From Rhina ancylostomus (Eukaryota): a stretch of DNA of 64,000 nt. The notes beneath the pieces are model-generated. The model saw only the letters and a program-made list of their open reading frames with translations, searched no databases and was not told the origin of the DNA. The stretch covers positions 11,497,270 to 11,561,269 of the forward strand of contig JARFYF010000036.1 in NCBI GenBank assembly GCA_030265395.1, read 5' to 3'. Shown here piece by piece: positions 1,432 to 60,346 of the stretch; position 1 is the first letter of the stretch, and every line of letters begins with the position of its first letter. A program made the position numbers and the translations under genes.

Positions 1432-1927
1432 ACTTCGAATACCGGTTACTGAGCAGTTCAAAAGCGCAGAAGATTTAAGAAGGTGCCGGGATGAATGGAT
1501 TGATGCCATTGATAAGTGCTGTTTGCATTGGAAGAGATTATCTCAGTCACAGTTTTTTGCTGAGGATCCCTTGTATGAGGTTATTCCAGTTACACCATCC
1601 AGAAAGGAGTGTGCTGCACAACACGTATTAAAACAACAAGACTCATTTGAAAACCAAATCTTGGAGAAGGAAGAAGAGGAGAAAGAACAAAAACTGGTTG
1701 GAAAAAAAGGGGGGAGAGAAGGATTTGAACCTGCATCACCTATGAAATCCCCTTTGCAAACATTAGCTATTTCTCCTCTACCTCAGCATGTCCAAGCTGC
1801 ACCATTATCTCCTGTTCCACACCAGAGACCAATCATCCCTACACCACCTCCACTCCTGGCTAAGAAATCAAGTGATGTGGTGAGGAAGACAAAACCATTT
1901 CATTGGGAAAAAGTTGCCTCAGAAAGG
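1432..1927 (+). CDS. Formin (PHCF-like) coding exon A: end of PH-like domain, linker, weak FH1, start of FH2 lasso
   Basis: Acceptor ttttaatcttag|A at 1431/1432 and donor AGG|gtaggt at 1927/1928. Open frame LRIPVTEQFKSAEDLRRCRDEWIDAIDKCC (PH C-terminal helix pattern) ...EDPLYEVIP...PLSPVPHQRPIIPTPPPLLAKK...KTKPFHWEKVASER (FH2 lasso KPxHW). Starts in phase 2, so upstream exons lie outside the window. Confidence 0.9.
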
Positions 1928-2706
1928 GTAGGTACTTTTGGCAAGCTGTGTTACCTTTTATTCCATTACTGTTGCTTATACCACCAAGCAATAGCTCTGG
2001 CTACGGCTTGGAGGATTTTTTTTCCTAGTTTTACTCTCTGTAAAATCAAACCATGAAGAGATGATATCCAGGAATCACAGCTTTGAGTCTTAATCATTGT
2101 AATCAGGGTGTGAGTGAAGCTTCACTCACTTCTGCATTTATCATAGTCAAGCCAGTCAAACCTACCAGTGGCCCATCACACTAAATTTGCTACTCTTTCC
2201 TCCAATTTGGCTTATCGTATAATTACACAGGACGAGGCCATTTGGCCTATCAGTTCTGCGCCAGTGAGAAATCTCATCAGTCCTATTTCTCTTCCTCCCC
2301 CCCCCCCCATTTCCCAGATAGCTGATGTACATATGAAGATGGAATATGATATAGGAGGCTGTTTGNNNNNNNNNNNNNNNNNNNNNNNNNNNNNNNNNNN
2401 TTTTCTCCCACTTGTTTCCCTACCACCCTCATACCTACAAGTTCAGAAGATAGTGGCATAATTCTGGCTGTGAAACTCACAAATTTAAGGTAATGCTAAA
2501 AGATATGTGTCTGCACTTTTTGAAGGTTCAAAATACTGTGATAAGTACCAAGAGATTGCTAATGTGAGGAGTTTTTCTAGTTATAAAGACACTTTCATCA
2601 CAGCATTTTAGAATTCTGTTTCTATGCAGGGTATACTCTGAATTGTGAATACTCCCTGTGAACAAAAGACTGCAGCTTTGATTGTTGCAAATGCATTGAT
2701 ATGTAC

Positions 2707-2710
<4 letters not shown>

Positions 2711-2736
<26 letters not shown>
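2711..2736. repeat. (CA)n microsatellite
   Basis: 13 perfect CA units. Confidence 0.95.
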
Positions 2737-2737
<1 letters not shown>

Positions 2738-2966
2738 CACCTTCTTTAAAAAATGTGCTTTGATTTGATAGCAGAAAGTGAGCAGAAGTAATGGGAAAGC
2801 AAAGACTGCAGATATTGGAAAGGAAAATAAATAAAAATAGTGAAGGCTGGAGATGCTCAGCAGGTTGGGCAGCATCTGTGCAGAGAAATGGTGTTATCCT
2901 TTCAAGTGGACCAAATTTCAATTGGTTATTGTCCTTATTGAGAAAAGTGGTTTTCCTTTATTTCAG

Positions 2967-3129
2967 ATACCAAGATCTATTTGGGAACAGAGCCGTGCAG
3001 CTGAAATACAGTTACACTATCCAAGTCTCTTTGATCAGTTCTCTGCTCAAGAAATGGTGATACAGTCGGTCAATGAATTTTCCAGCAATCAGGTTATTCT
3101 TCTGAATCAAAAAGTCGCTCACAATTTCA
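2967..3129 (+). CDS. Formin FH2 exon B
   Basis: tttcctttatttcag|ATA...TTCA|gtaagt. Translates IPRSIWEQSRAAEIQLHYPSLFDQFSAQEMVIQSVNEFSSNQVILLNQKVAHNF, containing the lasso SIW and an LLDxKRxQN-like motif. Phase 0 to phase 1. Confidence 0.93.
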
Positions 3130-3477
3130 GTAAGTTTAGTGGTGCATCATTTACTAAACAATTCCTATATTTGTGATTTTATTTTTTGCATGATGAATCA
3201 AACAACTCCTCGGTGTATTTATTGCCGTGATGAAGTGCTGTTCGAACTATCATTTTCCTAAGCTGGATGGTGAAATTGGTCCATGTCAGTATCCTGAAAT
3301 ATGCTCAGTTATTGACTGCCTGTTTTATATTATGCCCAGTGAAACCTCTGAACCACCAGACTGCTGATTCATTAGGATCTTATTTCATGTTACTGATGTC
3401 TTTACCAAGTAACTTACCTTGGTAAATTGGTAATAGCACCTTTATGGTACAAAATGACCGTGTGATTAGGAATAGAA

Positions 3478-3985
3478 TGAGTGTGGCTGAGGCATTGGAG
3501 TGAGGGGCAGGGATTCAGATTTCTGGATCACTGGGGCCTCTTTTGGGGCAGGTACGACCTGTACAAAGAGGACGGGTTGCACTTGNNNNNNNNNNNNNNN
3601 NNNNNNNNNNNNNNNNNNNNNNNNNNNNNNNNNNNNNNNNNNNNNNNNNNNNNNNNNNNNNNNNNNNNNNNNNNNNNNNNNNNNNCCAGGGCTGAAATGG
3701 TGGCCACAAGAGGACATAGGTTTAAGGTGCTGGGGAGTAGATATAGAGGAGATGTCAGGGGTTAACTTTTTTTACTCAGAGTGGTGAGTGCGTGGAATGG
3801 GCTACCGGCATCGGTGGTGGAAGCGGATACAATAGGGTCTTTTAACAGAATTTTGGATAGATACACTGAGCTGAGAAAAATAGAGGGCTATGGGTAAACC
3901 TAGTAATTTCTAAGGTGGGGACATGTTCAGCACAGCTTTGTGGGCCGAAGGGCCTGAATTGTGCTGTAGGTTTTCTTTGTGTCTA
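3478..3985 (+). mobile_element. CR1 LINE, ORF1 fragment and 3' end joined across a gap
   Basis: WLRHWSEGQGFRFLDHWGLFWGRYDLYKEDGLHL (CR1 ORF1 esterase C-terminus), then 100 N, then TRGHRFKV...RGDVRG (ORF2 end) and the gggccgaagggcctg tail. Confidence 0.85.
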
Positions 3986-4029
3986 TGTCATTTTGAAGAG
4001 GGGCTGGGTTAGTGGGTGAAGCTTTCCAG

Positions 4030-4330: not shown

Positions 4331-4994
4331 CAAGAAATGATAAGCTTTTCTTTATTGACTATTTCTTTCTCCTGTCTAATCCACTCTCACCTCTTCAGTG
4401 GGCAATTCACAAGTAATGTTATGGTCTACCTGGCTCCTAACAGCAATGAGCAACCACCAGTCTTTATTGTACAGTCAAGTTTGAAAAACTACACACACTA
4501 TGCGCTGGTCTAATTTATGAATAAGAAAATTAATTCGCATAAACGTGGAGGAGTTGGCCGGTGGAGAGCATATGTGCATGGGAGAAACTTATTTTTCAAT
4601 GGCCAACCAATACACCAAGACTAATATATGAAAGCATCAGAGATGATGTAGCTGCTGGAGTGAACACTGTGTGGTAAAGGACAAAAATAACAATTGCACT
4701 ATCAGAATTTAACATGTGGAGGTCGTATTTATCTATCAGGACTTTTCAAATCAATAAGTAAGAAGGCCATTAAAAGAAAAACACTTGTTTAAAATTTGTA
4801 ATGTGTGATATATTTTCTGTTCAGAAGATTGTATTAAACATTCATTAACTTTGTTTTATTCATGAAAAATACTAAATAAATCGGAGTCAATTTTTATGTT
4901 GGATATTTATAATTCCTGTAATTTCACACTATGTAAGTGTAGTAAACCAACTTGGGATGTCTTTCTGATTCCAGCAGGAGTGAACAGCAGTTGT

Positions 4995-5340
4995 ACAGAG
5001 GTATACAAAATATTAAGAGGAATAGATAGAGTGGACAGCCAGCGCCTCTTTCCCAGGGCGCCAATGCTGAATACAAGAGGGCATGGCTTTAATGTAATGG
5101 GTGGGAAGTTCAAGGGAGATGTCAGAGGGAGGTTTTTCACCCAGAGAGTGGTTGGTGCATGGAGTGCACTGCCTGGGGTAGTGGTAGAGTATGTTGGTCA
5201 AGTTCAAGAGATTGTTAGATAAGCATATGGAGGAATTTAAGATGGAGGGATATATGGGAGGAAGGGGTTAGATAGTCTTAGGTTTGGTTTGAAGGTCGGC
5301 ACAACATGGTGGGCCGAAGGGCCTGTATTGTTCTATGGAA
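4995..5340 (+). mobile_element. CR1 LINE 3' end
   Basis: EVYKILRGIDRVDSQRLFPR...TRGHGF...FKGDVRGRFFTQRVVGAWSALP, followed by the gggccgaagggcctg tail. Confidence 0.9.
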
Positions 5341-12719: not shown

Positions 12720-12831
12720 ACATTTTTCTGAAAAGTTTTCCAGTCAAAGTGACCCAACTAAAAATGAAACTGCTCATAATTCAAGAAGAAAATGGTGGAC
12801 TAACAAATGAACAGATCACTTCCTTACGGAG
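12720..12831 (+). CDS. Formin FH2 exon C
   Basis: tttttcttttccttaaag|AC...CGGAG|gtaagc. Translates (N)IFLKSFPVKVTQLKMKLLIIQEENGGLTNEQITSLR and carries the conserved actin-binding Ile (NxxIFL). Phase 1 to phase 2. Confidence 0.93.
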
Positions 12832-14060: not shown

Positions 14061-14084
14061 ACAACATCAGCTTCACCAGGAAAA

Positions 14085-22742: not shown

Positions 22743-24540
22743 CAGATTACCCCTTTTCAGGCTTTTTCGAGGTACTAGACAGGGCTGCCCTTTAAGTCCT
22801 TTACTAATTGATATTGCCTTGGAACCCTTGGCAATTGCTCTTCGTGACTCTTCTAACATATCTGGCATTATCCCTGGAGATGGGATGTATAAGATATCAT
22901 GTTAATGACCTGTTACATTATATCTCTAATCCTGAGAAATCCATCCCTGCAGTACTCTCACTGCTTGCTCTGTTTAGTGTTTTTTCTGGCTATAAATTAA
23001 ATCTTAATAAGAATGCACTTTTTCCATTAAATATGCAAGTTCCAATCTATAGGAGATCACCATTCAGATTAGTGACTGATTATTTTACTTATTTAGGTGT
23101 TAAAATTACCAAAAAGTATAAGGACTTATTTAAAGTTAACTTTTTACCCTTAATTGATCATGTTAAACAATTGCATACTAAATGGTCCCACTGATTGGTT
23201 GAATCAATGCTGTTAAGATGACTATTTTACCTAAATTTCTGTATCTATTTCAGGCAGTTCCAACCTTTATCTCTTTTGATATTATTGATTCTAAAATTCT
23301 TTCATATATATGGCAGAATAAAAACCCAAAGTTAAGTAAGAAATATTTACAGAAATTAAAGAAGGATGGCAGTATGGCTTTGCCTAACTTTAGATTTTAC
23401 TATTGAGCAATTAATATTTGATATTTAATTTTTTGGACACAAGATTTAAATGTAATTCAGTGTCCATAACAGGTGAATATTGAGCGTGAATCAGTGCATG
23501 GTTTTCATTTGCTTCTATTTTCGGAGCCTCGCTCCCCTTTGCACATACTAAATTGAATAAACAAACGATTAATCCAATAACCAAACACACAATACGAATA
23601 TGGTTTCACTTCCATAAGTTTTTTAGATTGAATACATTTATCAAGTTCTATTCTATCCAATTTTTTTCTTTCAACCATCTAGAATTGACCTAGCTTTTAT
23701 TTTATGGAAAATGTAGGGAATAGCATGTGTTTGTGATCTATTCAATGATAACTGTTTCAGTTGAATAGTTGTTTAATAAANNNNNNNNNNNNNNNNNNNN
23801 NNNNNNNNNNNNNNNNNNNNNNNNNNNNNNNNNNNNNNNNNNNNNNNNNNNNNNNNNNNNNNNNNNNNNNNNNNNNNNNNGTATTGAATATTGATTTACA
23901 ACCTCATCCTATTACTGCAATTTTTGGGTTACCAATGATGGATTCTGGCCATTTATCTGCCTCAGCTTGTCATATGATTGCAATTGTTAAATTAATAGCC
24001 AGGAGATCCATTCTATTTAAATGGAACGATCCTAAACCTCCTACTACATTCCAGTGGTTTACCCAAACTATAACATGTTTAAACTTAGAAAAAAATAGGA
24101 GTGATCCTGTTTTATTGATATTGATCCTTCAGTTAAATTTGAAGAAACTTGGAGCCCATTTATCCAGCATTTTCATATGATGTAAGGTGACCTTCTCCAA
24201 ATCCTTTTCAATAACTTTCTATTTAAATATATAGGAGTGGAGTTAATGACATAATGATGCTTTTAACTGATGAAAAATGACAGACCAGCTTTTGTTTAGT
24301 TTTTGGTTAATTTTTGTTTTTTTTGTTTATTATTCTTCTTTTAGTTTGTTCTTTTTCATATAATTAGATTTCTTTTAAAATCTTTTTCATGTTCAATTGT
24401 CAAGAGATTAGGAGGTTCAGATTACATATTTTACTCTTTGTCTGCATACATTAACTGTTATTATTGTAATCCCGATCTCTTTGTAACATATGTATAATTA
24501 CTATTGTTTATTAATTTGAAATTAATAAAAAGATTGATTC
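22743..24540 (+). mobile_element. L1 LINE, 5'-truncated ORF2 plus 3' UTR
   Basis: RGTRQGCPLSPLL, ALEPLAIALR, VNDLLHYISNP (YADD region), SGYKLNLNK, FTYLGVKIT, MTILPKFLYLFQAVP, GSMALPNFRFYY. T-rich UTR ending attaataaaaagatt. Confidence 0.9.
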
Positions 24541-27175: not shown

Positions 27176-27266
27176 GTATGTCCCCACACCAGGTGATATT
27201 GAAAAGTACAAAGCATACAAGGGCTCTCAATCTGATCTCCATATTGTTGACCAATATATGATGGAG
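27176..27266 (+). CDS. Formin FH2 exon D
   Basis: ttgtcag|G...GAG|gtaagt. Translates (R)YVPTPGDIEKYKAYKGSQSDLHIVDQYMME, matching the FH2 pattern PTxEE...L...DQF. Phase 2 to phase 0. Confidence 0.93.
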
Positions 27267-30965: not shown

Positions 30966-31052
30966 ATGTGCAACATTCCTTATCTGAGCCAGAGACTGGA
31001 TGTTATCCTTGCCATACGAGAATTTCCAGAAGCTATTGAGGACCTTCAGCCA
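30966..31052 (+). CDS. Formin FH2 exon E
   Basis: cttcctctacag|ATG...CCA|gtaagt. Translates MCNIPYLSQRLDVILAIREFPEAIEDLQP (IPxxxxRL motif). 87 bp, phase 0 to phase 0. Confidence 0.93.
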
Positions 31053-32324: not shown

Positions 32325-34092
32325 ACAGAACATAGACCATTGAATAATACTGCACTGGACAGGCCTTTCAACCCACCATGCTATGCCAATCTTGATGCCA
32401 ATTTATGCTAAATATCCTCCTGTGTACCATCCATATCCCTCCACTCCCTTCATATTCATGTGTCTATCTAAAAGCCTCCTTAACTCCACCAAACTGCTTG
32501 CTTCCACTACTGCCCCAGTAACCCATTTCAGGCACCTACCACTCACTGCATTTTAAAAAAAACTTGCCCCTCACTTTGCCTTTAAACTTCCCCCCCTAAC
32601 CTNNNNNNNNNNNNNNNNNNNNNNNNNNNNNNNNNNNNNNNNNNNNNNNNNNNNNNNNNNNNNNNNNNNNNNNNNNNNNNNNNNNNNNGCACTAGGGAGA
32701 ACAACCTGAGTTTGTCCAACCTCTCCTTATAGCTCATATCCTCTAATCCAGGCAGCATCCTGGTAAACCTCTTCTGCACCCTCGCCACAATCTCCACATC
32801 CTTTGTATATTGGGGCGACCAGAACTGCACACAATACACCAATTGCGGTCTGACTAAAGTTTTATATAGCTACAGCATGACTTCCTTACTCTTATACTCA
32901 ACAACCCTAGTACTGAAGGCAAGCATGCCATATGCCTTCTTTACTACTTTATCCACTTGTGTAGCCACTTGCAGTGAACTATGGACCTGGGCCCCAAGAT
33001 CCCTCTAATTTAATGCTATTAACCAGCCTCCATTCCCTGTATACTTTCTCCTTGCATTTGATCTACCACAGTGCAAAAGCTCACATTTGCCTGGATTAAA
33101 CTCCATTCTGCTACTTCTCTGCTGATATCTGTAACTGAGCTTATATCCCACTGTATTCTTTGATGTTCTTAACACTGTCCACAACTCCACCATCTTGGTG
33201 TCATCTGCAAATTTGCTAATGCACCCATCTACATTTACATCCAAATCATTGATATATATCACAGATAAGGGGTCCCAGCACTGATCCTTACGGAATACCA
33301 TGGGTCACAGACCTCCAGCCAGAATAACAGCCTTCTACCTCTACTCTGTCTTCTATGGGCAAGCCAGTTCCGAATCCAAACTTGCAATTCACCCTGGATC
33401 CCAGTAATCTTTATCTTCTGAATCAACCTACCATGAGGGACCTTGTCAAATGCCTTACTAAAGTCCATGTAGATAATGTCCACTGCCTTAGCCTCATCAA
33501 GCACCTTTGTCACCTCCTCAAAACTTGATCAAGTTTGTAAGGCGTAACATGACTTAACCTGCCCAAAGCCACGCGGGCTGTCCTTAAGCAGGCCATGCCT
33601 TTCCAAATGAACATAAATTCTCTCAGTATCCTCTCCAATGGCTTCCCTGCCACTGACAGAAGGCTCACTGGCCTTTAATTATCTGGATTATCCCTATTTC
33701 CCTTCTTGAACAAAGCAACAACATTTGGTGCTCTCCAGCCCTCCAGAACCTTGCCTGTTGATGTGAGGACACAAAGATCCTTGTCAAAACCCCAGGAATC
33801 TACTCACTTGCTTCTTTCAATATTCTGGGATATATGCCATCAGGCCCTGGGGACTTATCCACCTTATTGCTTTTCAGAAGGCCCAGCACTACCTCCTCCT
33901 TTAATCTCAGAATGTCCCAGCACATTAGCATGCCCCACTCTGTTTTCAATATTCTCCAATTCCTCCTTCTTGGTAAGTACTGACACAAAGTACTCATTTA
34001 GCACCTCAGCCAAGCACAAATCCCTCCTTTATCCTTGAGTGGACCTACCCTCTTCTTAGTTATCCTCTTTTTCTTAACATAAGTATAAAATG
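32325..34092 (-). mobile_element. CR1 LINE ORF2 RT and 3' end (segment 1 of a long interrupted copy)
   Basis: KSPGPDGIYPRILKE, VDIIYMDFSKAFDKVPHGRLIQK, IYINDLDV...ISKFADDTK and YCVQFWSP...QKRFTRMLPGLE. Frameshifted. Confidence 0.95.
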
Positions 34093-36376
34093 GAGACAAA
34101 AAAATTCTGCAGATGCTGGAATCTGGGGTAATACCCAGAGAATACTGGAGGAACTCAGTAGGTCAGGCTGCATCACTGAAGGGAAATAAACAGCTGNNNN
34201 NNNNNNNNNNNNNNNNNNNNNNNNNNNNNNNNNNNNNNNNNNNNNNNNNNNNNNNNNNNNNNNNNNNNNNNNNNNNNNNNNNNNNNNNNNNNNNNNNNNN
34301 NNNNNNNNNNNNNNNNNNNNNNNNNNNNNNNNNNNNNNNNNNNNNNNNNNNNNNNNNNNNNNNNNNNNNNNNNNNNNNNNNNNNNNNNNNNNNNNNNNNN
34401 NNNNNNNNNNNNNNNNNNNNNNNNNNNNNNNNNNNNNNNNNNNNNNNNNNNNNNNNNNNNNNNNNNNNNNNNNNNNNNNNNNNNNNNNNNNNNNNNNNNN
34501 NNNNNNNNNNNNNNNNNNNNNNNNNNNNNNNNNNNNNNNNNNNNNNNNNNNNNNNNNNNNNNNNNNNNNNNNNNNNNNNNNNNNNNNNNNNNNNNNNNNN
34601 NNNNNNNNNNNNNNNNNNNNNNNNNNNNNNNNNNNNNNNNNNNNNNNNNNNNNNNNNNNNNNNNNNNNNNNNNNNNNNNNNNNNNNNNNNNNNNNNNNNN
34701 NNNNNNNNNNNNNNNNNNNNNNNNNNNNNNNNNNNNNNNNNNNNNNNNNNNNNNNNNNNNNNNNNNNNNNNNNNNNNNNNNNNNNNNNNNNNNNNNNNNN
34801 NNNNNNNNNNNNNNNNNNNNNNNNNNNNNNNNNNNNNNNNNNNNNNNNNNNNNNNNNNNNNNNNNNNNNNNNNNNNNNNNNNNNNNNNNNNNNNNNNNNN
34901 NNNNNNNNNNNNNNNNNNNNNNNNNNNNNNNNNNNNNNNNNNNNNNNNNNNNNNNNNNNNNNNNNNNNNNNNNNNNNNNCAGAAAACGGAGTCATGGATC
35001 TCTGCAGTAAGCGGAGAGGGGAGGGGAGGGGAGGGGAGGGGAAGACATGCCTGGTGGTGGAATCCCATTGGAGATGGTGGAAGTTGTGAAGGATGTTGTG
35101 CTGGGTGTGGAGGCTCGTGGGATGGTAGGTGAGGACAAGGGGAACCCTTATCTCTGTTATGTCAGGAGGTGGATGGGATGAGGCAGACATGCAGGAAATA
35201 GAAACAAAGAAAAACTACGGCACAATTCAGGCTGTTCGGCCCACAAAGCTGTGCCGAAGAGAGGAGATGCAGGCGAGGGCTGTGTTGATAACACTGGGGG
35301 AGAAACTCAGTTTGCTGAAAAAGGAAGAGCTCATCACCAGAACAGATGCAGCAGAGACGGAGGAACTGAGGAAAAGGAATGGCATCCTCACAGGTGACAG
35401 GTTGGGAAGAGGTGCAGTTGAGGTAGCTGTGGGAGTCAGTGGGTTTGTAGTAGAGGTTGGTGGAATATCTGTCCCCTAAGATGGAAACAGAGAGATCCAG
35501 AAAGGGGAGAGAGGTGTCAGAGACGGACCAAGCGAATCTGAAGGCAGGGTGGAAGGGGTGGTGAAGTTGAACAAGTTGACGAGCTCAGTACGGGTGCAGG
35601 AAGCAGCCCCAGTGCAGTCATTGGTGTAACAGAGAAAGAGTTGGGGAGCGTTACCGGTGTAGGCCTGGAACTTGGACTGTTCCACATAGCCGACGAAAAG
35701 GCCGACATAGCTGGGTCCTGTGCAAGTGCCCATGGCTGCACCTTCAGTCTGGAGAAAGTGGGAGGAGCTGAAAGAGAAGTTGTTGAGGGTGAGAACCAGT
35801 TCTGCCAGACGGAGGAGGGTGGAGGGGAACTGGTTGGGTCTGTATTGAGAAAAAAACGGAGAGCCTTAAGGCCCTCTTGATGGGGGATGGAAGACGTCCA
35901 TAGTGAAAATGAGCTGGTCAGGGCCGGGGACCTGGAACTTGTTAAAGTGACAGAGAGTATGTAAAGTGTCACAGGGACAGGTAAGAAGGTAACCAAGGGG
36001 GACAAAATGGAGTCAAGATATGAGTACACGAGTTCAGTGGGGCAGGAGCAGGCAGAAACAATGGGTCTACCAGGGCAGTTGGGTTNNNNNNNNNNTGGAG
36101 GCTGTAGAGGGGAGGTCTCTGGAGGCGATGAGTTCAGTGATAGTGCAGGAGACAATGGCCTGATGCTGCTTGGTGGGGTCCAGGTTGAGGGATAAGTAAG
36201 AGTTGAGAGTTGATGTCTGACCTCAGCAGTGTAAAGGTCAGTCTGCCAGACTACAATAGCACCACACTTGTCTGCAGTTTTGATAGTGAGATTAGGATTA
36301 GTGGGGCAGAAGTGGAGGGCAGTGTGTTCAGAGGGGGTGAGGCTGGAATAGGTGAGAGGAGTGGTAAAGTTGAGAT
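34093..36376 (-). mobile_element. Penelope-like retroelement inserted in CR1
   Basis: PGRPIVSACSCPTELV.SYLDSILSPLV, SIPHQEGLKALRFFL, MGTCTGPSYVGLFVGYVEQS and RVPLVLTYHP are PLE RT motifs. The PLE terminal motif lies at 34093-34196, and an N gap at 34197-34979 hides the expected GIY-YIG region. Confidence 0.9.
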
Positions 36377-38156
36377 GTATGAAATGCTTTGGAATTATCC
36401 TTGACCCTGCTCACCAAGGACTTTCATGGCCCATATGGCCTTCCTAATCGCCTGCTTGAGCACTTTCCTGCTTTGTTTATCTTCCACAATGGCCCAGTCT
36501 GATCTTTGCTTCCTAAACCTTGCGTATGCTTCCTTTTTCTTCCTGACTAAATCTAGGACCTCCCAGGTCGTCCAAGATTACCTTACCCTACCATTCTCAT
36601 CCCTTCTTACTGGAACATGCTGCTTCTGAACTCTGCTCAGCTGGTCTCGAAACAGCTTCCACATATCAGGTGCTGACATCCTTGACAGCAGCTACTCCCA
36701 ATCAACCTCCCTTAGTTCCTGTCTTATCCTATCATAATTTGCCCTTCCCCAATTTAGTACTTTCCTGCAAGATCGAATTTATCCTTACTCATAAGTATCT
36801 TAAAATATAATGAGTTGTGGTCTCTTTTCCCAAAATATTTACCCCCATCAGGTCTGTCACCTGGCCTGGCTCATTTCTCAAAACAAGGTCCAGTATGTTC
36901 TCTCCTCAAGTTGGACTCTCCACAGACTGTTTCAAGAACCCCTCTTGGACGCACTGGAGAAATCCCGCCCCATCTAAGCCTCTTGTATTAAGGAAGTTCC
37001 AATCAATACTGGGGAAGTCCCTGACTATGACAACCCGGTTGTTTCTGTACCATTCCATTACCTGTCTACATATCTGTTCCTCCACCTCTCGGTGGCTTAT
37101 TGGGAGACCTACAGTATCATCCCATCGGCATAATGGCACCTCTCCTATTTCTGAGCTCCACCCAAATTAGTTCTGTGGATGAACCCTGCAGTATGTCCTC
37201 TCGAGTTACTGCTGTGACATTCTCCCTTATCAGTAGTGCAACCCCTCTGCCTCCTTTATCCTCTATCACCTCTAAAACCACAAAACCCAGGAATGTTGGA
37301 ATTGGTTTATTATTGTCACTTGTACCAAGGAACAGCGATAAACTTGTCTTGTACACCGTTCGCACAGATCAATCCATTATACAGTGCATTGAGGTAGTAC
37401 AGGGTTGACGTAGAATTTTAATATATAAAGTGAAGAACGATTGCAGTAGAAGTAATGAGTAGATCTGCGGAGAGCAGCTTGCGACAAGTCGCCACACTCC
37501 AGCGCCGTCTTGTAGTCCTCACCCATCCAGGTCTCTGCAATGGCAACATTTCAGCCCATCAGTCCCACCATGTTGGTTAGCCTGTCACTTACAGTCCTCC
37601 CTTAGTCTTACTGCTCATACCATCTTCCTTAACCCTACCACCTGCTGCCCTGCTGCTGTGGTTCCCATCCCCCACCCCTCAAGTTTAAACCCTCCCGAGC
37701 AGCACCAGCAAACCTCCTGGCAAGGATATTGGTTCCCCTCCAGTTCAGATACAAACTGTCTTGATTGCCCTGGAAAAGAGCCCAATGATTCATAAATCTG
37801 AAGCCTCCCTCCTGCACCAGCTCCTTGGCCACATATTGAACTGCACCATGTATCTATTTCTCACCTCACCGGCACGTGGCACGGGCAGTAATCCTGAGAT
37901 TACAATGCTGAGGGTCCTGTTTGATAAACTTTCTGCCTCACTCCCTAAAACCACTCTGCAGGACCTCATCCCTACTCCTCCTATGTCATTGGCACCAACA
38001 TGGACCACAACCTCTGGCTGCTCACCCTCCTCAGAAGGTCCTGTTCCCACTGTGAGATACCCTTGACCCTGGCACCAGGGAGACAACACACCATCCTGGA
38101 GTCTCAATTGTGGCCACAGAACCGCCTGTCTACCCACTGACTATCGAGTTCCCTAT
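36377..38156 (-). mobile_element. CR1 LINE segment 2: ORF1 esterase and ORF2 endonuclease
   Basis: QPEVVVHVGANDIG...IVISGLLPVPRA (ORF1), KGGRGVALLIRENVTAV...ELIWVELRN and NRVVIVRDF.SIDW...FLQCVQEGFLKQ.VESPT (APE endonuclease). Interrupted by a different repeat at ~37295-37515. Confidence 0.92.
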
Positions 38157-38256: not shown

Positions 38257-40456
38257 TCTTCACACCAAACTCACATTTCTCCTTATTTAATTTCAAATTG
38301 ACATTCCTTGTCACGTCAAGCACTTGTCTCAGTTGAGTATCATGTTCCTCCTTGGTGGACCCCCAGACGACGATGTCATCCATCATGGTCTCGACACCAG
38401 GTATGCCCTCAAAAATCATGTGGATGGTTTTATGGTAGACTTCTGGTCTGGACAGGATCCCGTATGTCAGCCGAAGATAGCGATATCTTCCTTGTAGTGT
38501 GTTAAAAGTACGCAGCCTAGTCAAGCTTCATCTGCCAAAATCCAGACTATGCATCGAGCTTGCTGAACCATTTGGCACCTGAAAACAGGGACATTATCTC
38601 CTCCCATGTTGGCAATTTAAAATGCTCTCTCTTAATGGCTTTATTGAGACCTCTTGAGTCTAGATATATCCACAATGCTCCATTTTTCTTTTGCACAATG
38701 ATCAGTGAAACCAATCACCCAATCTGTTGGTTCTTCAAATTTTCTTTATGACATTCATCCATTCCATGCATGCTAGTTCTTGTTTAAGTTTATCTCCAAG
38801 TTGAAACAGAACTTTCCTGCAGGCATGGACAACAGGAGCCACTATCTCATCTATGCAAATTGTGTACACCACGTATGCATCCAAGACCCTCAAAGACATC
38901 TGCATACTCTTCCAGGAGTGTTGTGTGGTCATCTTTGGTATGTGAGCTACAATGGAAACTCTTTTCACTGGGCTGAGCTTTTCACATGCACTCAGACCTA
39001 ATATTGGCTGTACTCTTTTTTCCACAATCAGCAGCTGTGATTTTAAGTGTTGACCCTTGTGCTTAAAGATCACCATACAGCCTACCTTTACTGGAACTTT
39101 CTCTCCAGTGTAGCCTGTCACTTTTAACTTCACAGTGTAAATCTTACTCTTTACTGTGAGAGTCTTATAATCATCTATGGATAACAGATTCATCTGAGCT
39201 CCGGTGTCAAGCTTGAATGGAATTACTCTCTCATGTACAGTTACTGGAATAACCCATTCTGTTTTACCAGCAGCCATAGTCTGTACAGAATCCACGAAGA
39301 ATTCCTTCATTTTCTCATCAACTGTGTGCACCTTTCTCATGTTAGCTCCAGCTTTGCAGCACCTTGCAAAGTGATTCTTCTTCCCACAGGTATTGCAGGA
39401 CTTCCAATAAGCAGGGCACAGCTTTGGATTGTGTTTACCTCCACATCTGCTGCATTCTCTGTCTGAGCTTTCCTCTTTGCTTTGATGCACTTTTGGAAAT
39501 GCCTTGTGTGCTGCTTCTCTGCTTTCACAGCATGCACTGTTGTGTCTGCCCTGCACAACTCCTTAGCTTGTGCTCGTGTAGTTTCTGCTGACCTACACAT
39601 ATTTGCCACCTTTTCTAGGGTCAAATCTTTTTCAGGCAACAGTTTTTCTGTGAGTCCATTATCTGGAATACCACAAACTATTCTGTCTTTAACTAGTGAG
39701 TTTCTCAAATCTCCAAATTCACAAGACTTACTCAATGTGTGAAGCTCAGCTAAGTATTGGTCAAAGTTAGCACCTTGTTACAGGAAAAACATTTATCTCT
39801 CTCAAATGTGATGTTTTTTACTTGGGATAAAATACTCCTCAAATTTTTTCAAAGTGCCCAACTCAAAAGCTGTCTCATCAATTTGAAAGCAGTTATAGAT
39901 GTCCAGAGCATCTTTGCCAATCACGAGCAGAAAAATAGACGCTTTCAATTTTTCATCATTCATCACTCCACTAGCATCTAAATATATGTTGAATCGCTGT
40001 TTGAAGCATTTCCAATTATTGGTTAGATTGCCAGTAAGCTGCATAGGCGTGGGAGGACGTAGCTTATCTGTAACGGGAACTCTCAGCCTCGCACCTGAAT
40101 CACTCTTGGCAAATCCAGTGACAGCTGAACTTCAGGAACAATGTGCTCCCTCGCCATGCTGGCCAGCTCTTTCTCCGTCTTATTACAGCTTTTCTTTTGT
40201 ACTGGCTGAGTCTCTTTCTCAATTGCCCACATATTCATCTACTCTGTCTGTTCAGACCTCTCTCCAACTTCTGACACCATGTTATGTGTGTTCTTCATCA
40301 AGAGACAAACTTCGTGTGGGTTTAACATCAGAACATTTTTATTAACCAACAACAGACTGGCTTGCTTTCCCTCTCTTTTTATAGCCACTTACCCCTTGCA
40401 TTACCCACTGGGAACTGTAGTTCTTTTATATAACTGCATAATAACTCATAATAACA
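38257..40456 (-). mobile_element. Gypsy/Ty3 LTR retrotransposon 5' half (LTR, PBS, gag, protease, RT)
   Basis: 177-bp LTR at 40280-40456 (TGTTAT...ATAACA) and PBS TGGTGTCAGAAGT at 40267-40279. gag NWKCFKQRFNIYL...DRIVCGI with two zinc knuckles (CSRCGGKH...C, CNTCGKKNHFARCC), protease KLDTGAQ, RT TFNT..GRY.YLRL.YGI and MMDDIVVWG. The 3' half is lost in the gap at 38157-38256. Confidence 0.95.
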
Positions 40457-42664: not shown

Positions 42665-42980
42665 TTATTCCCAGGGTAGGAGAGTCTATAAACTGGAGCG
42701 TTTAGCTTTACAGTGAGGGGAAAGATTTAAAAGGGATCTGAGGGCCAACTTTTTCACACAGAGGGAGGTGGGTATATGGAACGAGCTGGCAGGGGAAACT
42801 ACAGAGACTGGTGTAAGTGCAACATTTAAAAGCCATTTACACAGGTACATAGATAGGAGCAGTTCAGAGGGATATGGGCCAAATGCAGGGAAATGGGACG
42901 AGCTCAAGGAGACAACCTGGTCGGCATGGATGAGTTGGGCTGAAGGGCTTGTTTCCGTGCTGTATGACTCTATAACTCAT
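42665..42980 (+). mobile_element. CR1 LINE 3' end
   Basis: FKRDLRANFFTQREVGIWNELAG...FKSHLHRYIDR, followed by the tail gggctgaagggcttgtttccgtgctgtatgactcta. Confidence 0.88.
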
Positions 42981-44439
42981 TGTAAAATGAATAAGCAATT
43001 AAGAAAGTTAAAATATAGTTAAATAAAATATAAACAACTGAACTGGTATTTTCTATGCTGGTAGCTCACTCAAATGCTGGGGATCCCAATCCTACAGGAT
43101 CCTGGCAGAGGTGAACTCCCTCAGGTAATGCTGGATAATCCCTGTATGATTGGGCTGGACTCCATATGATGTCCAGTGAGAGAGTGGGTTATCAACGTAC
43201 TATCACTCAGCTCACCCTACATTTATGACAGGGTCATACTTACTGGGAACAGTTCAGTTTGGCTCAATATTCCTTCATTACTGTTGAATCAAAATTCTGG
43301 TGCTCCCTACCTCAAAATGTTGGAAGCATCTTCACCAAATACAATATCATGATTATACCTTTGCCGGCCTAATTTTCTGTGAATTGTAATGTTTTAGCAT
43401 AATCAAGGCATAGGTAAATGCAAGTAGTCATTGTTCAAGATGCTGGCCCACCACTGGCTTATCAAGGTAAGCTAGGGCAGACACTAATGTCGGCTGTGTC
43501 AGTGACATCCATATCTCAAGATTCAGATGGACATAGATTAATTTAGCCTCCCATTCTTTGGTGGAATAATTGAGTTTCTGGCAATCCTGGAAAATTTATG
43601 AAACTCTTTTGCAGGCCTGTGACATGAAAAATGTATTCCTAAATTCTATTCTATCAAATATCAAACCACTTGACGTCAAACAAGCCGTTTAGTCACATTG
43701 GGCAAATTGTCTGCCTGAAATCAGCAGGAAACATTTGTATTACTAACTGAAGTTGTCTGTAATTGAAAGACTTTCCCAAATTTTTCACCCCTGGAGTTTC
43801 CCTTGTGTCTAGCCTTTTATCTCTCAATAGTGTTCAATTGTTTAAAATCCAACTACAGTGATCAAGAAACTTTGTGAATAAATAAATAGATTATACGTCA
43901 CATTTACAAACAATGTTTAGTAATCCAGCAGTGGTTTTTCATAAACCTTTGTGCTGGAGGATGTGTGGTGACAGAGTTATGTGATGTCTTTCATCCTGAT
44001 GACATTAAGCAACAGCCTGTGGTAGTTAGATGAACAGTGCATTGTCTCTTTGCTTTAGATCTTAGTCTCCTGTTAGGATACTATTCAATCAGACAGTGGA
44101 AAGTTCAAAGTTCAGTCTGCAGAAGAACCATTTATTCTCCATTTTGGAGACCTCAAAAGATCCAAAGCTAAACCAGTTCTCTTTCCTCCTTTGTGTATTT
44201 AATGTATTCTTCAGAACTGACTAAATCAAGAATAAGTTACTAATCTTAGCTTGCTGATCTATTTATTTTTAATGATCGTGACAACTTAATACAAGTTTTG
44301 TGGGCATTAAGAATGTGAAGAGCAGATTAGAGAATATGTTTTATTTACGCAGTTCAAATTTAACTTCTCCCCAGTCTAATACACTGGTGGCTGGAGGATG
44401 CAGTTCATGCAAGTTAACTCCAAGTACTGTCACTCAGTG

Positions 44440-46900: not shown

Positions 46901-47524
46901 TGTAGTGGCTAGCTACACTGAATAAAGACACGAGACACTTCTTTGAAGTCCAAGAGTCGAATGCACGACTAGGGTGCGCTGCCCCTTTAATAATCACAGT
47001 TCCCGTGCTGATGTCACGCGCTGGTCACATGACCTTCCCCCCGCGCGGGCTCCCCAGCCCAACGAAGAAGGAGTGACCCACACCATTTTGTATCGGGGCC
47101 TCCGATGACGCTCGCGATCGTGGGAGCCGGTTCGTGAAAGGTAAGTCGCCACATAACCACCCCGCCAACAGAACTGGCGATACTGTCGCAAAAGCCAGGA
47201 TTCAATAAACTATGACTTGGACGGCCTGCCCCTGCGTCGTGNNNNNNNNNNNNNNNNNNNNNNNNNNNNNNNNNNNNNNNNNNNNNNNNNNNNNNNNNNN
47301 NNNNNNNNNNNNNNNNNNNNNNNNNNNNNNNNNNNNNNNNNTGGGGTGCGCTACCCCTTTAATAAACACCGTTCCCATGCTGACATCACACGCGGGTCAC
47401 GTGACCTTGCCGCACATGGGCTCCCCAGCCCAACGAAGAAGGAGTGCCCCGCGCCATCTTGTATCAGGGCCTCCAACGATGCTCGTGATCGTGGGGGCCG
47501 GTTCATGAACGGTAAGTCGCCACA
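46901..47524 (-). mobile_element. LTR retrotransposon with two LTRs, interior collapsed in a gap
   Basis: 3' LTR at 46901-47153 (TGTAGTGG...CGCCACA on +), adjacent PPT-like G-rich tract on the minus strand, an ORF end RRRGRPSKS*, 100 N, then a partial second LTR at 47342-47524. 4-bp TSD CTTG at 46897-46900 and 47525-47528. Confidence 0.88.
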
Positions 47525-47830: not shown

Positions 47831-48193
47831 ATAAAAGCCCCAGAGAAAGAGGTTTCCCATTCTTATCAACTTAGAAAGGCCTTTGAATCTTTCTCTGAGG
47901 TTATTCTCTTGATCAGTGTACCAGAGAAGCTTCACAGAGTCATACAAAAAATTAGGATAACTACTAAGTTTTCCAGTATCCAAATCTCCATCATAATACA
48001 GTGTGGTAATTCGCAGGGAGAAAAGATATTTAAGTTCTGCAGATCTATAAAAACATAGAACCACTAAGTAGAAATGAATTAATAATTTCTTATAGCACAG
48101 CCCATTCGGTCCATTGCGAATAAACTCAGAGAAAGATTCAAAGGCCTTTCTAAGTTGATAAGAATGGGAAACCTCTTTCTCTGGGGCTTTTAT
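47831..48193. repeat. 76-bp inverted repeat with a 211-bp spacer
   Basis: 47831-47906 is the reverse complement of 48118-48193 at 75 of 76 positions. Confidence 0.97.
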
Positions 48194-53165: not shown

Positions 53166-53318
53166 CTGATAAGGCAGAAAATCAAGGCTTGTTTGCAGCT
53201 GCAGAACAGCAAGCTGTTTGTTTCTGTACTCGATTATCTCCTGGCAATTGGCAATTTCTTAAACAAGAATGCCGGCAAAGAAATGGCAAAAGGATTTTCT
53301 CTGTCATCTCTGCCGAAA
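53166..53318 (+). CDS. Formin FH2 exon F (post, GNxxN motif)
   Basis: ttttgcttttgtttcag|CTG...AAA|gtaagc. Translates LIRQKIKACLQLQNSKLFVSVLDYLLAIGNFLNKNAGKEMAKGFSLSSLPK, with the hallmark FH2 motifs LAxGNFLN and AxGFxLSSLxK. 153 bp, phase 0 to phase 0. Confidence 0.97.
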
Positions 53319-54993: not shown

Positions 54994-55123
54994 GTAGCCC
55001 ACTTGCGAGGAAAGGACAGGACATTCACCTTACTTCATGCTCTTGTGGACCAGATAATGTCACGAGAGCCCAGCTTGATAAACTTTCCCCAAGAGCTCAC
55101 AGAATTTGAAGAGATTCCTGGAG
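54994..55123 (+). CDS. Formin FH2 exon G
   Basis: ttatttatag|GTA...GGAG|gtaagt. Translates VAHLRGKDRTFTLLHALVDQIMSREPSLINFPQELTEFEEIPG (TLLH motif). Phase 0 to phase 1. Confidence 0.95.
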
Positions 55124-55212: not shown

Positions 55213-55245
55213 ATTCCATTAAGGGTTTGATTGCAGAGGTGGATG
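55213..55245 (+). CDS. Formin FH2 exon H (33-bp mini-exon)
   Basis: cttccttcctag|AT...GATG|gtatgt after an 89-bp intron. Translates (D)SIKGLIAEVD. Phase 1 to phase 1. Confidence 0.85.
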
Positions 55246-58148: not shown

Positions 58149-58246
58149 TTTTAAAGAATGAGATGGCAAAGATCAATCTGCACAAAAAGACATTCAAGTC
58201 AAAAAACAAGAACAGCTCAGATGGGCAGTTTTACAAAGAATTGAAG
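58149..58246 (+). CDS. Formin FH2 exon I
   Basis: cccacaacag|TT...AAG|gtaatt. Translates (V)LKNEMAKINLHKKTFKSKNKNSSDGQFYKELK (D..F motif). Phase 1 to phase 0. Confidence 0.9.
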
Positions 58247-59208
58247 GTAATTCCAGGAGAAAAGTTAACTAAAAAAGCAATGATTTAAAACGTCTGCATT
58301 GCAACATTAGGGCAGACATTGAATTTAGGAGCTCTGTCAAACTCATACTATAAATAAGAAGAATTATGTACTTAAAAGGGAATTTTTAATGATTTCCCCA
58401 TTAATGTGGAATCGTAAACAATGTTATGGTTGATGTCACAAATGATCTTATTATGCCACATTAAAGGACAGGCTTCAGTGAACATGGTTTTTATGTGGTT
58501 TTCCTATTAATGAATAGGCTATGAATGTTCAATGTTCATATCAAGATGAAATGTAATATTAATGTCAGGGGTGTCCTTTCCTGCAATCTATCTAATATTT
58601 ATCACTCAACTAACATCACTAAAGCAGATTACCTGGTGATTATCATGTTGTTGTTCATGACAGCCTGCTGTAAGCAATTTGGTTCTGTACTTCCTATTTT
58701 TCAACTGTGGCCACACTTCAAAAAGTATTTCATTGTTTGTGAAGTGCTTTGGGATATCCTGAGGTCATGAATGGTTTTATAGAATTGCAAATTTTTTCTT
58801 CATTAAGACTCTGTTAGCTTAGAGTATGATACAGAGCAAACTGTGTTTTGTATCTCAAACCTTCAAAAGACGGTTACTCTTATATTAATTTTTTCAGGTT
58901 CATCTTTGTAATATTGAGACATTGATAAATGTCAGTAATTCAGCTGCTGAAACTGCCTTCAGGTCTCTCTGAAGTCCTCAGTGATAATCCTCAATATCCT
59001 TTATATATTTAGTCATCTCTGAAGCGTCACCTGGGTCTTTGACACAGAGCTCAGTCAAGGAGACTATTGTACCAGAGTCTTTCCTCATTGTGTACCCCTG
59101 GATGTAGCACCACAGAGAGTGTTCCCTTCGCCAAGCTCTTTATTGTAATGGCATACCACAGTTTATAGCAATATAGGGGAATTTGATGGTGGGCCTGAAA
59201 CAGGCTTC

Positions 59209-59510
59209 TGTCATGGTTCTGAGTTGTGGCCGTCATTTGGCTCCATTAATGCCTTGTTGTCCAGCACATGGATTCCATGCTGGACTGATTGCATAACAAT
59301 ACANNNNNNNNNNNNNNNNNNNNNNNNNNNNNNNNNNNNNNNNNNNNNNNNNNNNNNNNNNNNNNNNNNNNNNNNNNNNNNNNNNNNNNNNNNNNNNNNN
59401 NNNTTCCAGTTACTGCCTGTGTTTGTCCTGAGGAAGTATCCTGACTCCAGTGTTGTATCGGTGTGCTGCATTTGGGTTCTCTGAGTTTGCTCTCGATCAA
59501 CATTGTGACA
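59209..59510. mobile_element. Solo LTR, copy 2
   Basis: TGTCA...TGACA termini and a 5-bp TSD GCTTC (59204-59208 and 59511-59515). Homologous to 11204-11449. Has an internal 80-N gap. Confidence 0.88.
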
Positions 59511-60054
59511 GCTTCTTGCACCGGTGTGTAGTGTTAGCAACTATCATATGTGTTTTGTTTTATAATCACTTACCTCTTAAATCATTAAGGAAGCTTTCAT
59601 TTTAGTTTGAGGAATGCAAGAAATTATACATCATGCATGAGTCCAATGTCTTGGGGTATGATATTTATTCAAATATTGCTATCCTGCTGATCAGCAGAGG
59701 CAACATCAGCTTTGTCTAATTTTTATATCAAGGATTTGCCCGAGTCCCAGAGGACAAGCTTGTGGCACTACGAGAAGGAGAGAATTTGGGATGTGCACGT
59801 TCATAATGAGTTGAGGGTGGGTGTTGTATAGGATTTGAGGTTTTGGCAAAATGTTAGCTGAATGAACACGCCTCAGACTAGATTAATCTGAGAAAGTGAA
59901 GAATGTTTTGATTTGTAAGACAATTAAAACAACAAAGAAATGCAAGCAAAAATGAATATGGTTACATGAAGTAGCCTTTCCATCTAGTTTTCTGAAAACT
60001 TGTCAGTAAAATGCTTTAAGATTAAAAATAACTTCTTACTTATTTTGTTTCTAG

Positions 60055-60138
60055 TCTGTAATTCAAAAATATGAAGAAGAATTGGCTCACTTGAATAAAC
60101 GATGTGATGAAATGAAGAAACTCTACAATGATATCTTG
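60055..60138 (+). CDS. Formin FH2 exon J
   Basis: ttattttgtttctag|TCT...TTG|gtaata. Translates SVIQKYEEELAHLNKRCDEMKKLYNDIL (helical). 84 bp, phase 0 to phase 0. Confidence 0.9.
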
Positions 60139-60238
60139 GTAATATTACTAGTGACATTTTTGATTCATCTCTAGATTGTGTGAGCTACCTCTTTTTTGAC
60201 ATTAAGCTTAAATCTGCTTCTGTTGCTGTTTTTGATAG

Positions 60239-60346
60239 GTCAGATTTGGAGAACCACAAGATCGAGACTCTGAAGTTATGTTCGGATGGATCTCCTCCTT
60301 CATTAAAGATTTTAGGAAAGCTGTCACAGAACAAAACAAGTGTTGA
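60239..60346 (+). CDS. Formin terminal coding exon K (end of FH2, stop)
   Basis: gctgtttttgatag|GTC after a 100-bp intron. Translates VRFGEPQDRDSEVMFGWISSFIKDFRKAVTEQNKC*, matching the FH2 C-terminal pattern FGE...F...F...F.KA..E. TGA at 60344-60346. Confidence 0.92.
   Translation, partial: VRFGEPQDRDSEVMFGWISSFIKDFRKAVTEQNKC

What the first reader, a model, noticed from the sequence alone, without database searches (positions are those of the whole stretch)
1432..60346. Intact PH-FH1-FH2 formin of the PHCF type, spread over 59 kb and nearly invisible in the ORF track
Seen: 11 GT-AG exons splice in perfect phase (1555 coding nt, no internal stop) into a complete FH2 domain, preceded by a segment resembling the C-terminal helix of a PH domain (LR...AEDLRRCRDEWIDAIDK). 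Known: the seven classical animal formin subtypes (DIAPH, DAAM, FMNL, FHOD, INF, FMN, GRID2IP) do not carry a PH domain, whereas a PH-containing subtype (PHCF) has been described by phylogeny, is absent from human, and has little functional characterisation that I know of. Inference: this is a cartilaginous-fish PHCF gene, a candidate membrane/lipid-targeted actin nucleator.
Basis: partly seen in the sequence, partly recalled or inferred. Interest (0 to 1): 0.8.

Follow-up and report, generated by a model that had tools for sequence, protein, structure and literature searches.

The report
Ray gene for PH-domain formin (PHCF)
This is the back two-thirds of an intact ray gene for an already described but never functionally studied actin-filament regulator that placental mammals have lost; its sequence suggests it holds filament ends at membranes rather than rapidly lengthening them.

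Summary
Eleven exons (1432-60346, + strand, all AG/GT) give 1555 nt and 517 codons plus a stop. The product aligns without gaps, 478 of 517 residues identical, to a sawfish (Pristis pectinata) protein from its residue 293. The protein is a PHCF formin. It is about twice as identical to the published opossum PHCF as to opossum formins of the other subtypes (hand counts), and orthologue models show two PH-type folds (Z 13-14). The window holds only the last strand and helix of PH2; about 292 N-terminal residues lie upstream. Three qualifications. The 'FH1' is vestigial (one PPP run). The conserved FH2 lysine (mDia1 K994 column) is Arg. The stop comes 7 codons earlier than in Pristis, which is probably harmless. 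Orthologue PH1 carries a conserved KXnQXR phosphoinositide-type motif. Inferred mechanism, not shown: a membrane-recruited, tail-less, Delphilin-like nucleator or barbed-end capper with weak profilin-driven elongation. The subtype is known (Pruyne 2016) and orthologues are already in NCBI for many sharks and rays. Verdict: new member of a known kind; modest interest.

The parts
1432..1927 (+). First exon in the window (aa 1-165): end of PH2, acidic/disordered linker, vestigial FH1, start of the FH2 lasso. An internal exon; upstream exons lie before position 1.
   Evidence: AG at 1430-1431, GT at 1928; tblastn E 2e-91
1432..1561 (+). Last beta-strand and C-terminal helix of the second PH-type domain (aa 1-43; P0002 293-335)
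   Evidence: Model of P0002: strand 290-294, helix 304-335; PH2 profile positions 86-123, 43.8 bits; fold match of the orthologue domain to SKIP and SKAP55 PH, Z 13.0
1775..1852 (+). Vestigial FH1-like proline-rich stretch; only PPP run at 1844-1852, 11 residues before FH2
   Evidence: Longest proline run 3, at most 5 Pro in 8 residues
1886..60316 (+). FH2 domain (aa 152-508), spread over exons 1-11
   Evidence: Own profile 615.6 bits, full length; orthologue P0002 Pfam FH2 223 bits against cut-off 34.8; Foldseek to DAAM1 and mDia1 FH2, E about 1e-13
2967..3129 (+). Exon 2 (aa 166-220), second lasso Trp and linker
12720..12831 (+). Exon 3 (aa 220-257); holds the invariant actin-binding Ile (aa 221, codon 12722-12724; mDia1 I845 column)
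   Evidence: Ile in 98 of 98 orthologues
27176..27266 (+). Exon 4 (aa 257-287)
30966..31052 (+). Exon 5 (aa 288-316)
53166..53318 (+). Exon 6 (aa 317-367); post motif GNFLN at 53250-53264
54994..55123 (+). Exon 7 (aa 368-411); Arg372 (55006-55008) sits in the mDia1 K994 column
55213..55245 (+). Exon 8, 33 nt (aa 411-422), after an 89-nt intron
   Evidence: 11 of 11 residues identical to P0002
58149..58246 (+). Exon 9 (aa 422-454)
60055..60138 (+). Exon 10 (aa 455-482)
60239..60346 (+). Last coding exon (aa 483-517) ending in TGA at 60344-60346; no C-terminal tail, DAD or WH2 after the last FH2 helix
60347..60367 (+). Six codons still matching the Pristis C-terminus, then TAA at 60365-60367: the older reading frame behind a lineage-specific (or error-derived) earlier stop
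   Evidence: tblastn reads through it, 6 of 6 residues identical to P0002

Best explanation
Identity (shown, about 0.97): the 3' two-thirds of the functional PHCF formin gene of a batoid close to sawfishes. By orthology the full protein is about 810 aa: two short helical hairpins, PH1, PH2, disordered linker, vestigial FH1, FH2, no tail. Mechanism (inferred, about 0.5): PH1 binds acidic phosphoinositides through a KXnQXR pocket and brings the protein to a membrane. The FH2 dimer, with lasso tryptophans, post motif and actin-binding Ile intact, then nucleates a filament or grips an existing barbed end there. With no good profilin track and no tail it does little to speed elongation. It therefore works like Delphilin: a membrane-anchored nucleator, leaky capper or barbed-end tether, controlled by localisation rather than by Rho/DID-DAD autoinhibition.
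For: Intact splicing and 92.5% identity to Pristis. FH2 core conserved in the 98 aligned orthologues: Ile 98 of 98, lasso Trp 97 of 97 and 98 of 98, post Gly 94 of 94 with letters. Two 7-strand + helix domains in both models, matching PH domains at Z 13-14, rmsd about 2 A, and tandem-PH ADAP1 at E 1e-8. PH1 has Lys110 and Arg119 in 94 of 96 orthologues with letters, and Gln117 in 84 of 98. That is the KXnQXR variant shown to bind PI(3,4,5)P3 in ARAP3-PH1 (PMC9865853, passages), which is also the top, though tied, fold hit. PH1 is as conserved as FH2 between ray and ray-finned fish (58.5% against 57.4%). FH1: longest proline run 3 here and 2-3 in 5 of 5 batoids; tail 10 residues here and 8 in 64 of 78 ray-finned fish. 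Delphilin, tail-less with a poor FH1, nucleates and caps but does not speed elongation, tolerates loss of the conserved Lys, and was already likened to PHCF (PMC6004577). The chicken orthologue appears in intestine and muscle RNA-seq tables.
Against: No biochemical or cell data were found for any PHCF. The KXn(K/R)XR motif did not separate lipid binders from non-binders among 67 human PH domains (PMC8282632). The fold hits tie PH with FERM-F3 and PTB domains within 1 Z, so a protein-binding role is not excluded. PH2 has Tyr or Phe at the key Arg position (97 of 98). PH1 is not in this window. Other PHCFs keep runs of 5 or more prolines (5 of 15 chondrichthyans, 34 of 78 ray-finned fish, 2 of 4 lobe-finned rows), so weak elongation may be lineage-specific. 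No RNA evidence for these junctions.
Confidence: 0.6

Rival explanations
1. A conventional processive elongator: scattered prolines and the PPP near FH2 suffice to deliver profilin-actin, and PH1-PH2 simply replaces the Rho-binding module for targeting.
For: A Pro-Pro-Pro-Leu-type motif just before FH2 is conserved (P428/P431/P432 nearly invariant). Many PHCFs have runs of 5-6 prolines. FH1 motifs in active formins range from 1 to 13 consecutive prolines (bioRxiv 10.1101/263566, passage).
Against: Batoid runs are 2-3 long, and only 11 residues separate PPP from FH2. Short linkers and few tracks go with no acceleration in Delphilin and dDAAM.
Confidence: 0.2
2. The PH-like pair is a protein-interaction module (small GTPase, receptor tail or FH2 autoinhibition), not a lipid sensor; recruitment is by a partner protein.
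For: FERM-F3, PTB and SIN1-PH rows tie with lipid-binding PH domains. The motif is a poor predictor of lipid binding. PH2 lacks the canonical Arg. Mollusc-like PHCFs show an altered PH1 loop.
Against: The basic beta1-beta2 loop of PH1 is nearly invariant in vertebrates (K110, R113, R115, K118, R119) and K..QRR persists in the sea-urchin-matching row.
Confidence: 0.2
3. A decaying gene (early pseudogenisation, as happened in placental mammals), given the premature stop, the Lys-to-Arg change and the eroded FH1.
For: TGA 7 codons before the Pristis stop. The subtype was lost in placentals (PMC5047451).
Against: The remaining tail (10) is longer than in most bony fish (8). Arg is the family norm (92 of 96). 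All splice sites and frames are intact; FH2 is 94% identical to Pristis and the terminal branch is short (0.026 against 0.032).
Confidence: 0.03
4. A divergent member of a classical subtype (DIAPH3, DAAM2 and similar), as the NCBI names of its orthologues suggest.
For: NCBI names such as 'protein diaphanous homolog 3' and 'disheveled-associated activator of morphogenesis 2'. mDia1 is the best PDB sequence hit (98 bits).
Against: The names disagree among clear orthologues. P0002 scores 252 bits on the FH2 region of the sea-urchin PHCF-matching protein against 98/80/66/64 for mDia1/DAAM1/INF2/FMNL3. Hand counts against opossum rows: PHCF 35 of 58 against FMN2 18, INF2 16, FHDC1 13; PHCF 33 of 53 against DAAM1 19, DIAPH1 18, FMNL2 14, FHOD1 13, GRID2IP 12. 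No DID, GBD or PDZ Pfam match in 14 proteins.
Confidence: 0.01

Closest known systems
PHCF formins (Pruyne 2016, PMC5047451): opossum LOC103097295, chicken LOC419333, zebrafish LOC101883438, sea urchin LOC100890634
   Same: FH2 sequence (68 of 111 identical to the opossum row over two gapless blocks, hand count), tandem N-terminal PH domains in orthologues, no C-terminal PH (the chordate pattern), no DID/DAD/WH2, variable and weak FH1, Arg in the conserved-Lys column (opossum, chicken, zebrafish, urchin, oyster rows).
   Different: That paper's main text has no hit for 'shark' or 'cartilaginous' and its PHCF list has no chondrichthyan. This copy ends 7 residues earlier than Pristis and has one of the weakest FH1s. 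The N-terminal helical-hairpin motif and the Lys-to-Arg column did not appear in the passages read.
Pristis pectinata NCBI protein named 'protein diaphanous homolog 3' (P0002)
   Same: Orthologue: 478 of 517 identical, gapless, sister taxon in the tree.
   Different: 39 substitutions, 17 of them in the first exon; earlier stop; the NCBI name is a misnomer.
Delphilin / GRID2IP (works-like comparison, PMC6004577)
   Same: Membrane-targeting N-terminal module, no DID/DAD, no tail, short FH1-FH2 linker, few polyproline tracks.
   Different: PDZ instead of PH; FH2 not closely related (12 of 53 identical in the block counted); keeps Lys; activity measured, whereas PHCF activity is not.
ARAP3 PH1 (PDB 7YIS; PMC9865853)
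   Same: PH fold (Z 14.1, rmsd 2.1 A, 92 aligned) and the KXnQXR motif in orthologue PH1.
   Different: 15% identity; tied with many PH, FERM-F3 and PTB rows; other pocket residues not compared; no binding data for PHCF.

Membership tests
Formin (FH2 superfamily) | Complete FH2 domain with lasso Trp residues and GN(Y/F)(M/L)N post motif | tested here: met
   aa 152-508, 616 bits on own profile; orthologue Pfam FH2 223 bits; Foldseek E about 1e-13 to DAAM1 and mDia1
Formin (FH2 superfamily) | Conserved actin-binding Ile (mDia1 I845 / Bni1 I1431 column) | tested here: met
   Ile221; aligned to mDia1; 98 of 98 and 55 of 56 deeper hits. The number I845 is recalled; its spacing to K994 (149) agrees with the PDB chain
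Formin (FH2 superfamily) | Conserved Lys (mDia1 K994 / Bni1 K1601 column) | tested here: not met
   Arg372 here; R in 92 of 96 orthologues, K in 0; deeper PHCF-like hits R 31, K 14, other 8 of 53; K in 57 of 63 non-PHCF rows seen. Not required for activity in INF2 or Delphilin, so not disqualifying
Formin (FH2 superfamily) | FH1 with polyproline profilin tracks | tested here: inconclusive
   Meets Pruyne's loose definition (two or more adjacent prolines) with one PPP; no run of 4 or more; profilin binding untested
PHCF subtype | FH2 groups with known PHCFs rather than with the other eight subtypes | tested here: met
   By pairwise comparison, not by a nine-subtype tree: hand counts against opossum rows of seven other subtypes (MWHF, absent from chordates, not counted), phmmer 252 against at most 98 bits. 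The tree holds PHCF-like rows only
PHCF subtype | Pair of N-terminal PH domains (chordate pattern) | tested here: met
   Shown on orthologues P0002 and P0015; in the window itself only the end of PH2 is present. Pfam cut-offs not reached in 14 of 14
PHCF subtype | No G/DID/DD, DAD or WH2; no C-terminal PH in chordates | tested here: met
   Protein ends 10 residues after the last conserved FH2 Phe; no such Pfam match in orthologues
PHCF subtype | Vertebrate synteny between MC3R and CBLN4 | not testable with these tools
   The gene fills the window; no neighbouring host gene was seen among the open frames viewed or the 25 scanned
Diaphanous-related formins (DIAPH, DAAM, FMNL, INF) | N-terminal DID/DD and C-terminal DAD | tested here: not met
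   N-terminus of orthologues folds as two PH-type domains; no tail
GRID2IP / Delphilin | N-terminal PDZ/HN domains and Delphilin-type FH2 | tested here: not met
   No PDZ match; 12 of 53 identity against 33 of 53 for PHCF
Canonical phosphoinositide-binding PH domain | KXn(K/R/Q)XR motif in beta1-beta2 | tested here: met
   Orthologue PH1 only: K110 and R119 in 94 of 96; PH2 lacks it; the motif is weakly predictive
Canonical phosphoinositide-binding PH domain | Measured lipid binding | not testable with these tools
   Needs liposome or SPR assays

The most novel reading that the evidence does not exclude
Vertebrate PHCFs are PI3K-switched barbed-end cappers or anchors: an ARAP3-like PIP3-reading PH1, a so far unnamed N-terminal helical-hairpin repeat (found in 27 of 67 deep homologues, twice in 5) that may oligomerise, and a tail-less FH2 with a relaxed lysine contact. 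That would be a lipid-gated rather than Rho-gated formin, kept from sea urchins to marsupials and lost in placentals, with batoids showing the extreme of FH1 loss.
Probability: 0.25. Interest if true: 0.65.

Novelty: new member of a known kind. Interest (0 to 1): 0.3.

Why it matters
PHCF is an animal formin subtype for which the four literature searches here found no functional study, and databases hide it under wrong names (DIAPH3, DAAM2, formin-F/H, formin-like 13). Correct labelling helps. The sequence yields three cheap, testable predictions: PIP3-type binding by PH1, weak profilin-driven elongation, and tolerance of Arg at the conserved lysine. If true, it would be a formin regulated directly by lipid signalling, and a natural case for asking what placental mammals lost. 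This particular ray locus adds little beyond the zebrafish or chicken genes, which are better suited to experiments.

Tried and rejected
Pfam on exon 1 alone: 0 families; PH-clan matches in 7 of 14 proteins, all under cut-off. Search for upstream exons inside the window: none (best E 3.1). ESM Atlas: P0002 95-335 gave PH-family clusters at 0.82-0.85, below the tool's 0.9 mark, so a lead only; P0002 10-90 (hairpin repeat) gave no usable hit. A PDB profile search to E 10 gave no match to the hairpin region and only a weak DOK2-PH hit, E 0.01. Homodimer prediction for the hairpin (P0002 50-92, two copies): no verdict, score 0.02, alignment not used; it is no evidence either way. My first idea that Lys-to-Arg is fixed in all bilaterian PHCFs was rejected: 14 of 53 deeper hits keep Lys and 8 have other residues, and sponge and ctenophore rows keep Lys. 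Pseudogene reading rejected. Rfam at gathering scores: 0 hits. A nine-subtype tree was not built because no named non-PHCF sequences were held; the 77 unnamed hits under 200 bits were left out. Accession names of the unnamed representatives remain unchecked. A search for structural papers on the lysine contact returned 0. Bacterial, viral and metagenome collections were not searched.
Full report
Observation. The 165-residue first exon retrieved 14 relatives among 871 candidates: 13 named cartilaginous-fish proteins and one unnamed; 13 of 14 carry a precomputed FH2 domain. The best is Pristis pectinata P0002 (816 aa, 90%). tblastn of P0002 against the window gives 11 collinear blocks. With splice sites chosen from the local AG/GT candidates, the exons total 1555 nt, 11 of 11 acceptors are AG, 10 of 10 donors are GT, and the 517-residue product aligns without a gap to P0002 293-809 with 478 identities. 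Introns run from 89 to 22,113 nt, and the 18 N-gaps all fall outside exons.

What lies outside the window. P0002 has 292 further residues with no match here (best E 3.1), so the start codon, the hairpins, PH1 and most of PH2 are upstream of position 1. All statements about them rest on orthologues. AlphaFold models of P0002 (98-row alignment, mean pLDDT 74, pTM 0.47) and of the FH2-less Mustelus fragment P0015 (74 rows) each show two helical hairpins and two domains of seven strands plus a C-terminal helix. Against 48,161 PDB representatives the first domain matches ARAP3-PH1 best (Z 14.1, rmsd 2.1, 92 aligned) and the second matches the SKIP and SKAP55 PH domains (Z 13.0, rmsd 2.0-2.4, 97-98 aligned); FERM-F3 and PTB rows tie within about 1 Z. 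Foldseek's top hit is tandem-PH ADAP1 (E 1.4e-8). Pfam does not call these PH domains: 0 of 14 proteins reach a cut-off.

Subtype. Pruyne 2016 (PMC5047451; seen: abstract, outline, passages, the ten PHCF rows of S1 Table, S1 Text rows around two identifiers, and part 6 of 46) defines PHCF by FH2 clustering and PH domains, with chordate members having two N-terminal PH domains and variable FH1s. By hand count against the opossum rows, the window matches PHCF at 35 of 58 columns against FMN2 18, INF2 16 and FHDC1 13, and in the next block at 33 of 53 against DAAM1 19, DIAPH1 18, FMNL2 14, FHOD1 13 (52 columns) and GRID2IP 12. A profile search of 1.84 billion representatives (150 listed, 67 new hits of 200 bits or more analysed, 77 lower ones left out) recovered P0136, whose FH2 agrees by eye with the sea-urchin PHCF row in the segments seen, and P0126, close to but not identical with the opossum row. 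P0002 scores 252 bits on the P0136 FH2 region against 98, 80, 66 and 64 for mDia1, DAAM1, INF2 and FMNL3. An IQ-TREE tree of 39 chosen PHCF-like FH2 rows puts the window sister to Pristis (98/91) within batoids (100/100) and Chondrichthyes (100/99). That tree holds no other subtype, so it shows orthology and taxon, not subtype. Synteny could not be tested.

Anatomy of the active part. Of 117 homologues from three searches, 98 were aligned; 9 unnamed, 7 partial and 3 redundant ones were left out. The actin-binding Ile is invariant (98 of 98), and the lasso Trp residues and post motif are kept. The mDia1 K994 column holds Arg in the window and in 92 of 96 orthologues, never Lys. Among deeper hits it is R 31, K 14, other 8 of 53, whereas 57 of 63 non-PHCF rows seen in the supplement have Lys. 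The K989 column stays Lys (92 of 94). Loss of this lysine does not abolish activity in INF2 (PMC5839776, passages) or Delphilin (PMC6004577, passages and one section), so Arg does not imply a dead FH2. The FH1 is one PPP, 11 residues before FH2; runs of 5 or more prolines occur in 0 of 5 batoids, 5 of 15 chondrichthyans, 2 of 4 lobe-finned rows and 34 of 78 scored ray-finned fish. There is no tail. The stop at 60344 precedes six codons still identical to Pristis and a TAA at 60365. It leaves 10 residues after the last conserved Phe, against 17 in 10 of 15 chondrichthyans and 8 in 64 of 78 ray-finned fish, so it is probably neutral.

Targeting. Orthologue PH1 is as conserved as FH2 (58.5% against 57.4%, ray against ray-finned fish; PH2 39.1%; linker 17.2%) and has Lys110 and Arg119 in 94 of 96 rows, with Gln117 in 84 of 98. 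ARAP3-PH1 uses the same KXnQXR variant to bind PI(3,4,5)P3 (PMC9865853, passages). Against this, the motif failed to separate binders from non-binders among 67 human PH domains (PMC8282632, passage), and PH2 lacks the Arg. A roughly 30-residue helical hairpin precedes PH1. It occurs twice in P0002 and was found in 27 of 67 deeper hits, twice in 5; no family was found for it.

Mechanism. Shown: an intact PHCF reading frame, a conserved FH2 core, and PH-type folds in orthologues. From established formin biology: FH2 domains dimerise through lasso and post and encircle barbed ends (recalled). Inferred: membrane recruitment by PH1; nucleation or capping with little profilin-driven acceleration, by analogy with Delphilin, whose authors already suggested a parallel with PHCF; regulation by localisation, since DID/DAD are absent. 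Rivals are a conventional elongator (0.2), protein-mediated targeting (0.2), pseudogene (0.03) and a misassigned classical subtype (0.01).

Novelty. The subtype is published (also PMC5628938, passages) and orthologues are annotated across sharks, rays, chimaera, bony fish, a frog and a turtle. Four searches (30 of 641, 30 of 492, 4 of 4 and 25 of 868 listings seen) showed no functional study of a PHCF, only chicken LOC419333 in two RNA-seq tables (PMC7458390 and PMC10258505, one passage each). The library lacks most subscription journals, and most of the alignment supplement (45 of 46 parts) was not read in full. Verdict: real, correctly interpreted, a new member of a known but neglected kind. 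Interest 0.3; 0.65 if the lipid-gated capper reading (probability 0.25) proves true.

Noticed in passing
window 38257-40131 (- strand), intron 5: Broken LTR-retrotransposon remnant with gag-like frames, a retropepsin-type aspartyl protease (38738-39562, PF13650, 26.3 bits) and a reverse-transcriptase fragment (38257-38527, RVT_1, 37.7 bits); the Ty3/Gypsy label is my recall.
   Followed up: partly
window 32585-33528 (-), 35165-36410 (-), 22808-24177 (+), 36909-38140 (-), 4866-5219 (+), 42717-43019 (+): Fragmented LINE/Penelope-like open frames in introns (RVT_1 23.8 bits, under cut-off, at 33262-33528; the others scanned had no Pfam hit); several SINE-like repeat families. Element classes are recalled, not tested.
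   Followed up: partly
window 46972-47524 and 47831-48193: Near-duplicate blocks flanking a 100-N gap (85-89% identity), and a 76-nt 99% inverted pair 211 nt apart; possibly assembly artefacts. The window has 18 N-gaps, 11 of exactly 100 nt.
   Followed up: no
window 60344-60367: Stop 7 codons earlier than in Pristis with the old C-terminus still readable behind it; may be a recent substitution, an allele or a base error.
   Followed up: partly
P0136 (sea-urchin-PHCF-matching protein), residues 149-367: It carries N-terminal PH1 (90.7 bits) and PH2 (40.3 bits) matches, whereas Pruyne 2016 reported only a C-terminal PH for the echinoderm protein; the older gene model may have been incomplete.
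   Followed up: partly
P0117 (Pelodiscus sinensis XP_025043699.1): A turtle PHCF protein exists, although the 2016 synteny figure legend lists the gene only for coelacanth, birds and marsupials.
   Followed up: no
P0002 residues 16-42 and 58-84 (upstream of the window): Unnamed duplicated helical-hairpin motif, conserved from invertebrate-like to vertebrate PHCFs. From memory it resembles a C-terminal motif of BCAP/BANK1 adaptors; untested.
   Followed up: partly
P0112, P0120, P0121, P0122, P0019: The frog, three unnamed tetrapod-like and the coelacanth PHCFs have non-basic residues (V, T, W, A, C) at the FH2 lysine column, suggesting that contact is dispensable in the subtype.
   Followed up: partly
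window 61026-63024: Eight AATAAA/ATTAAA hexamers downstream of the stop, the first at 61026; candidate poly(A) signals, no chance control run.
   Followed up: no
NCBI names: Clear orthologues are named DIAPH1/2/3, DAAM2, formin-E/F/H/I and formin-like 3/6/12/13/17: systematic mis-annotation of the subtype.
   Followed up: yes
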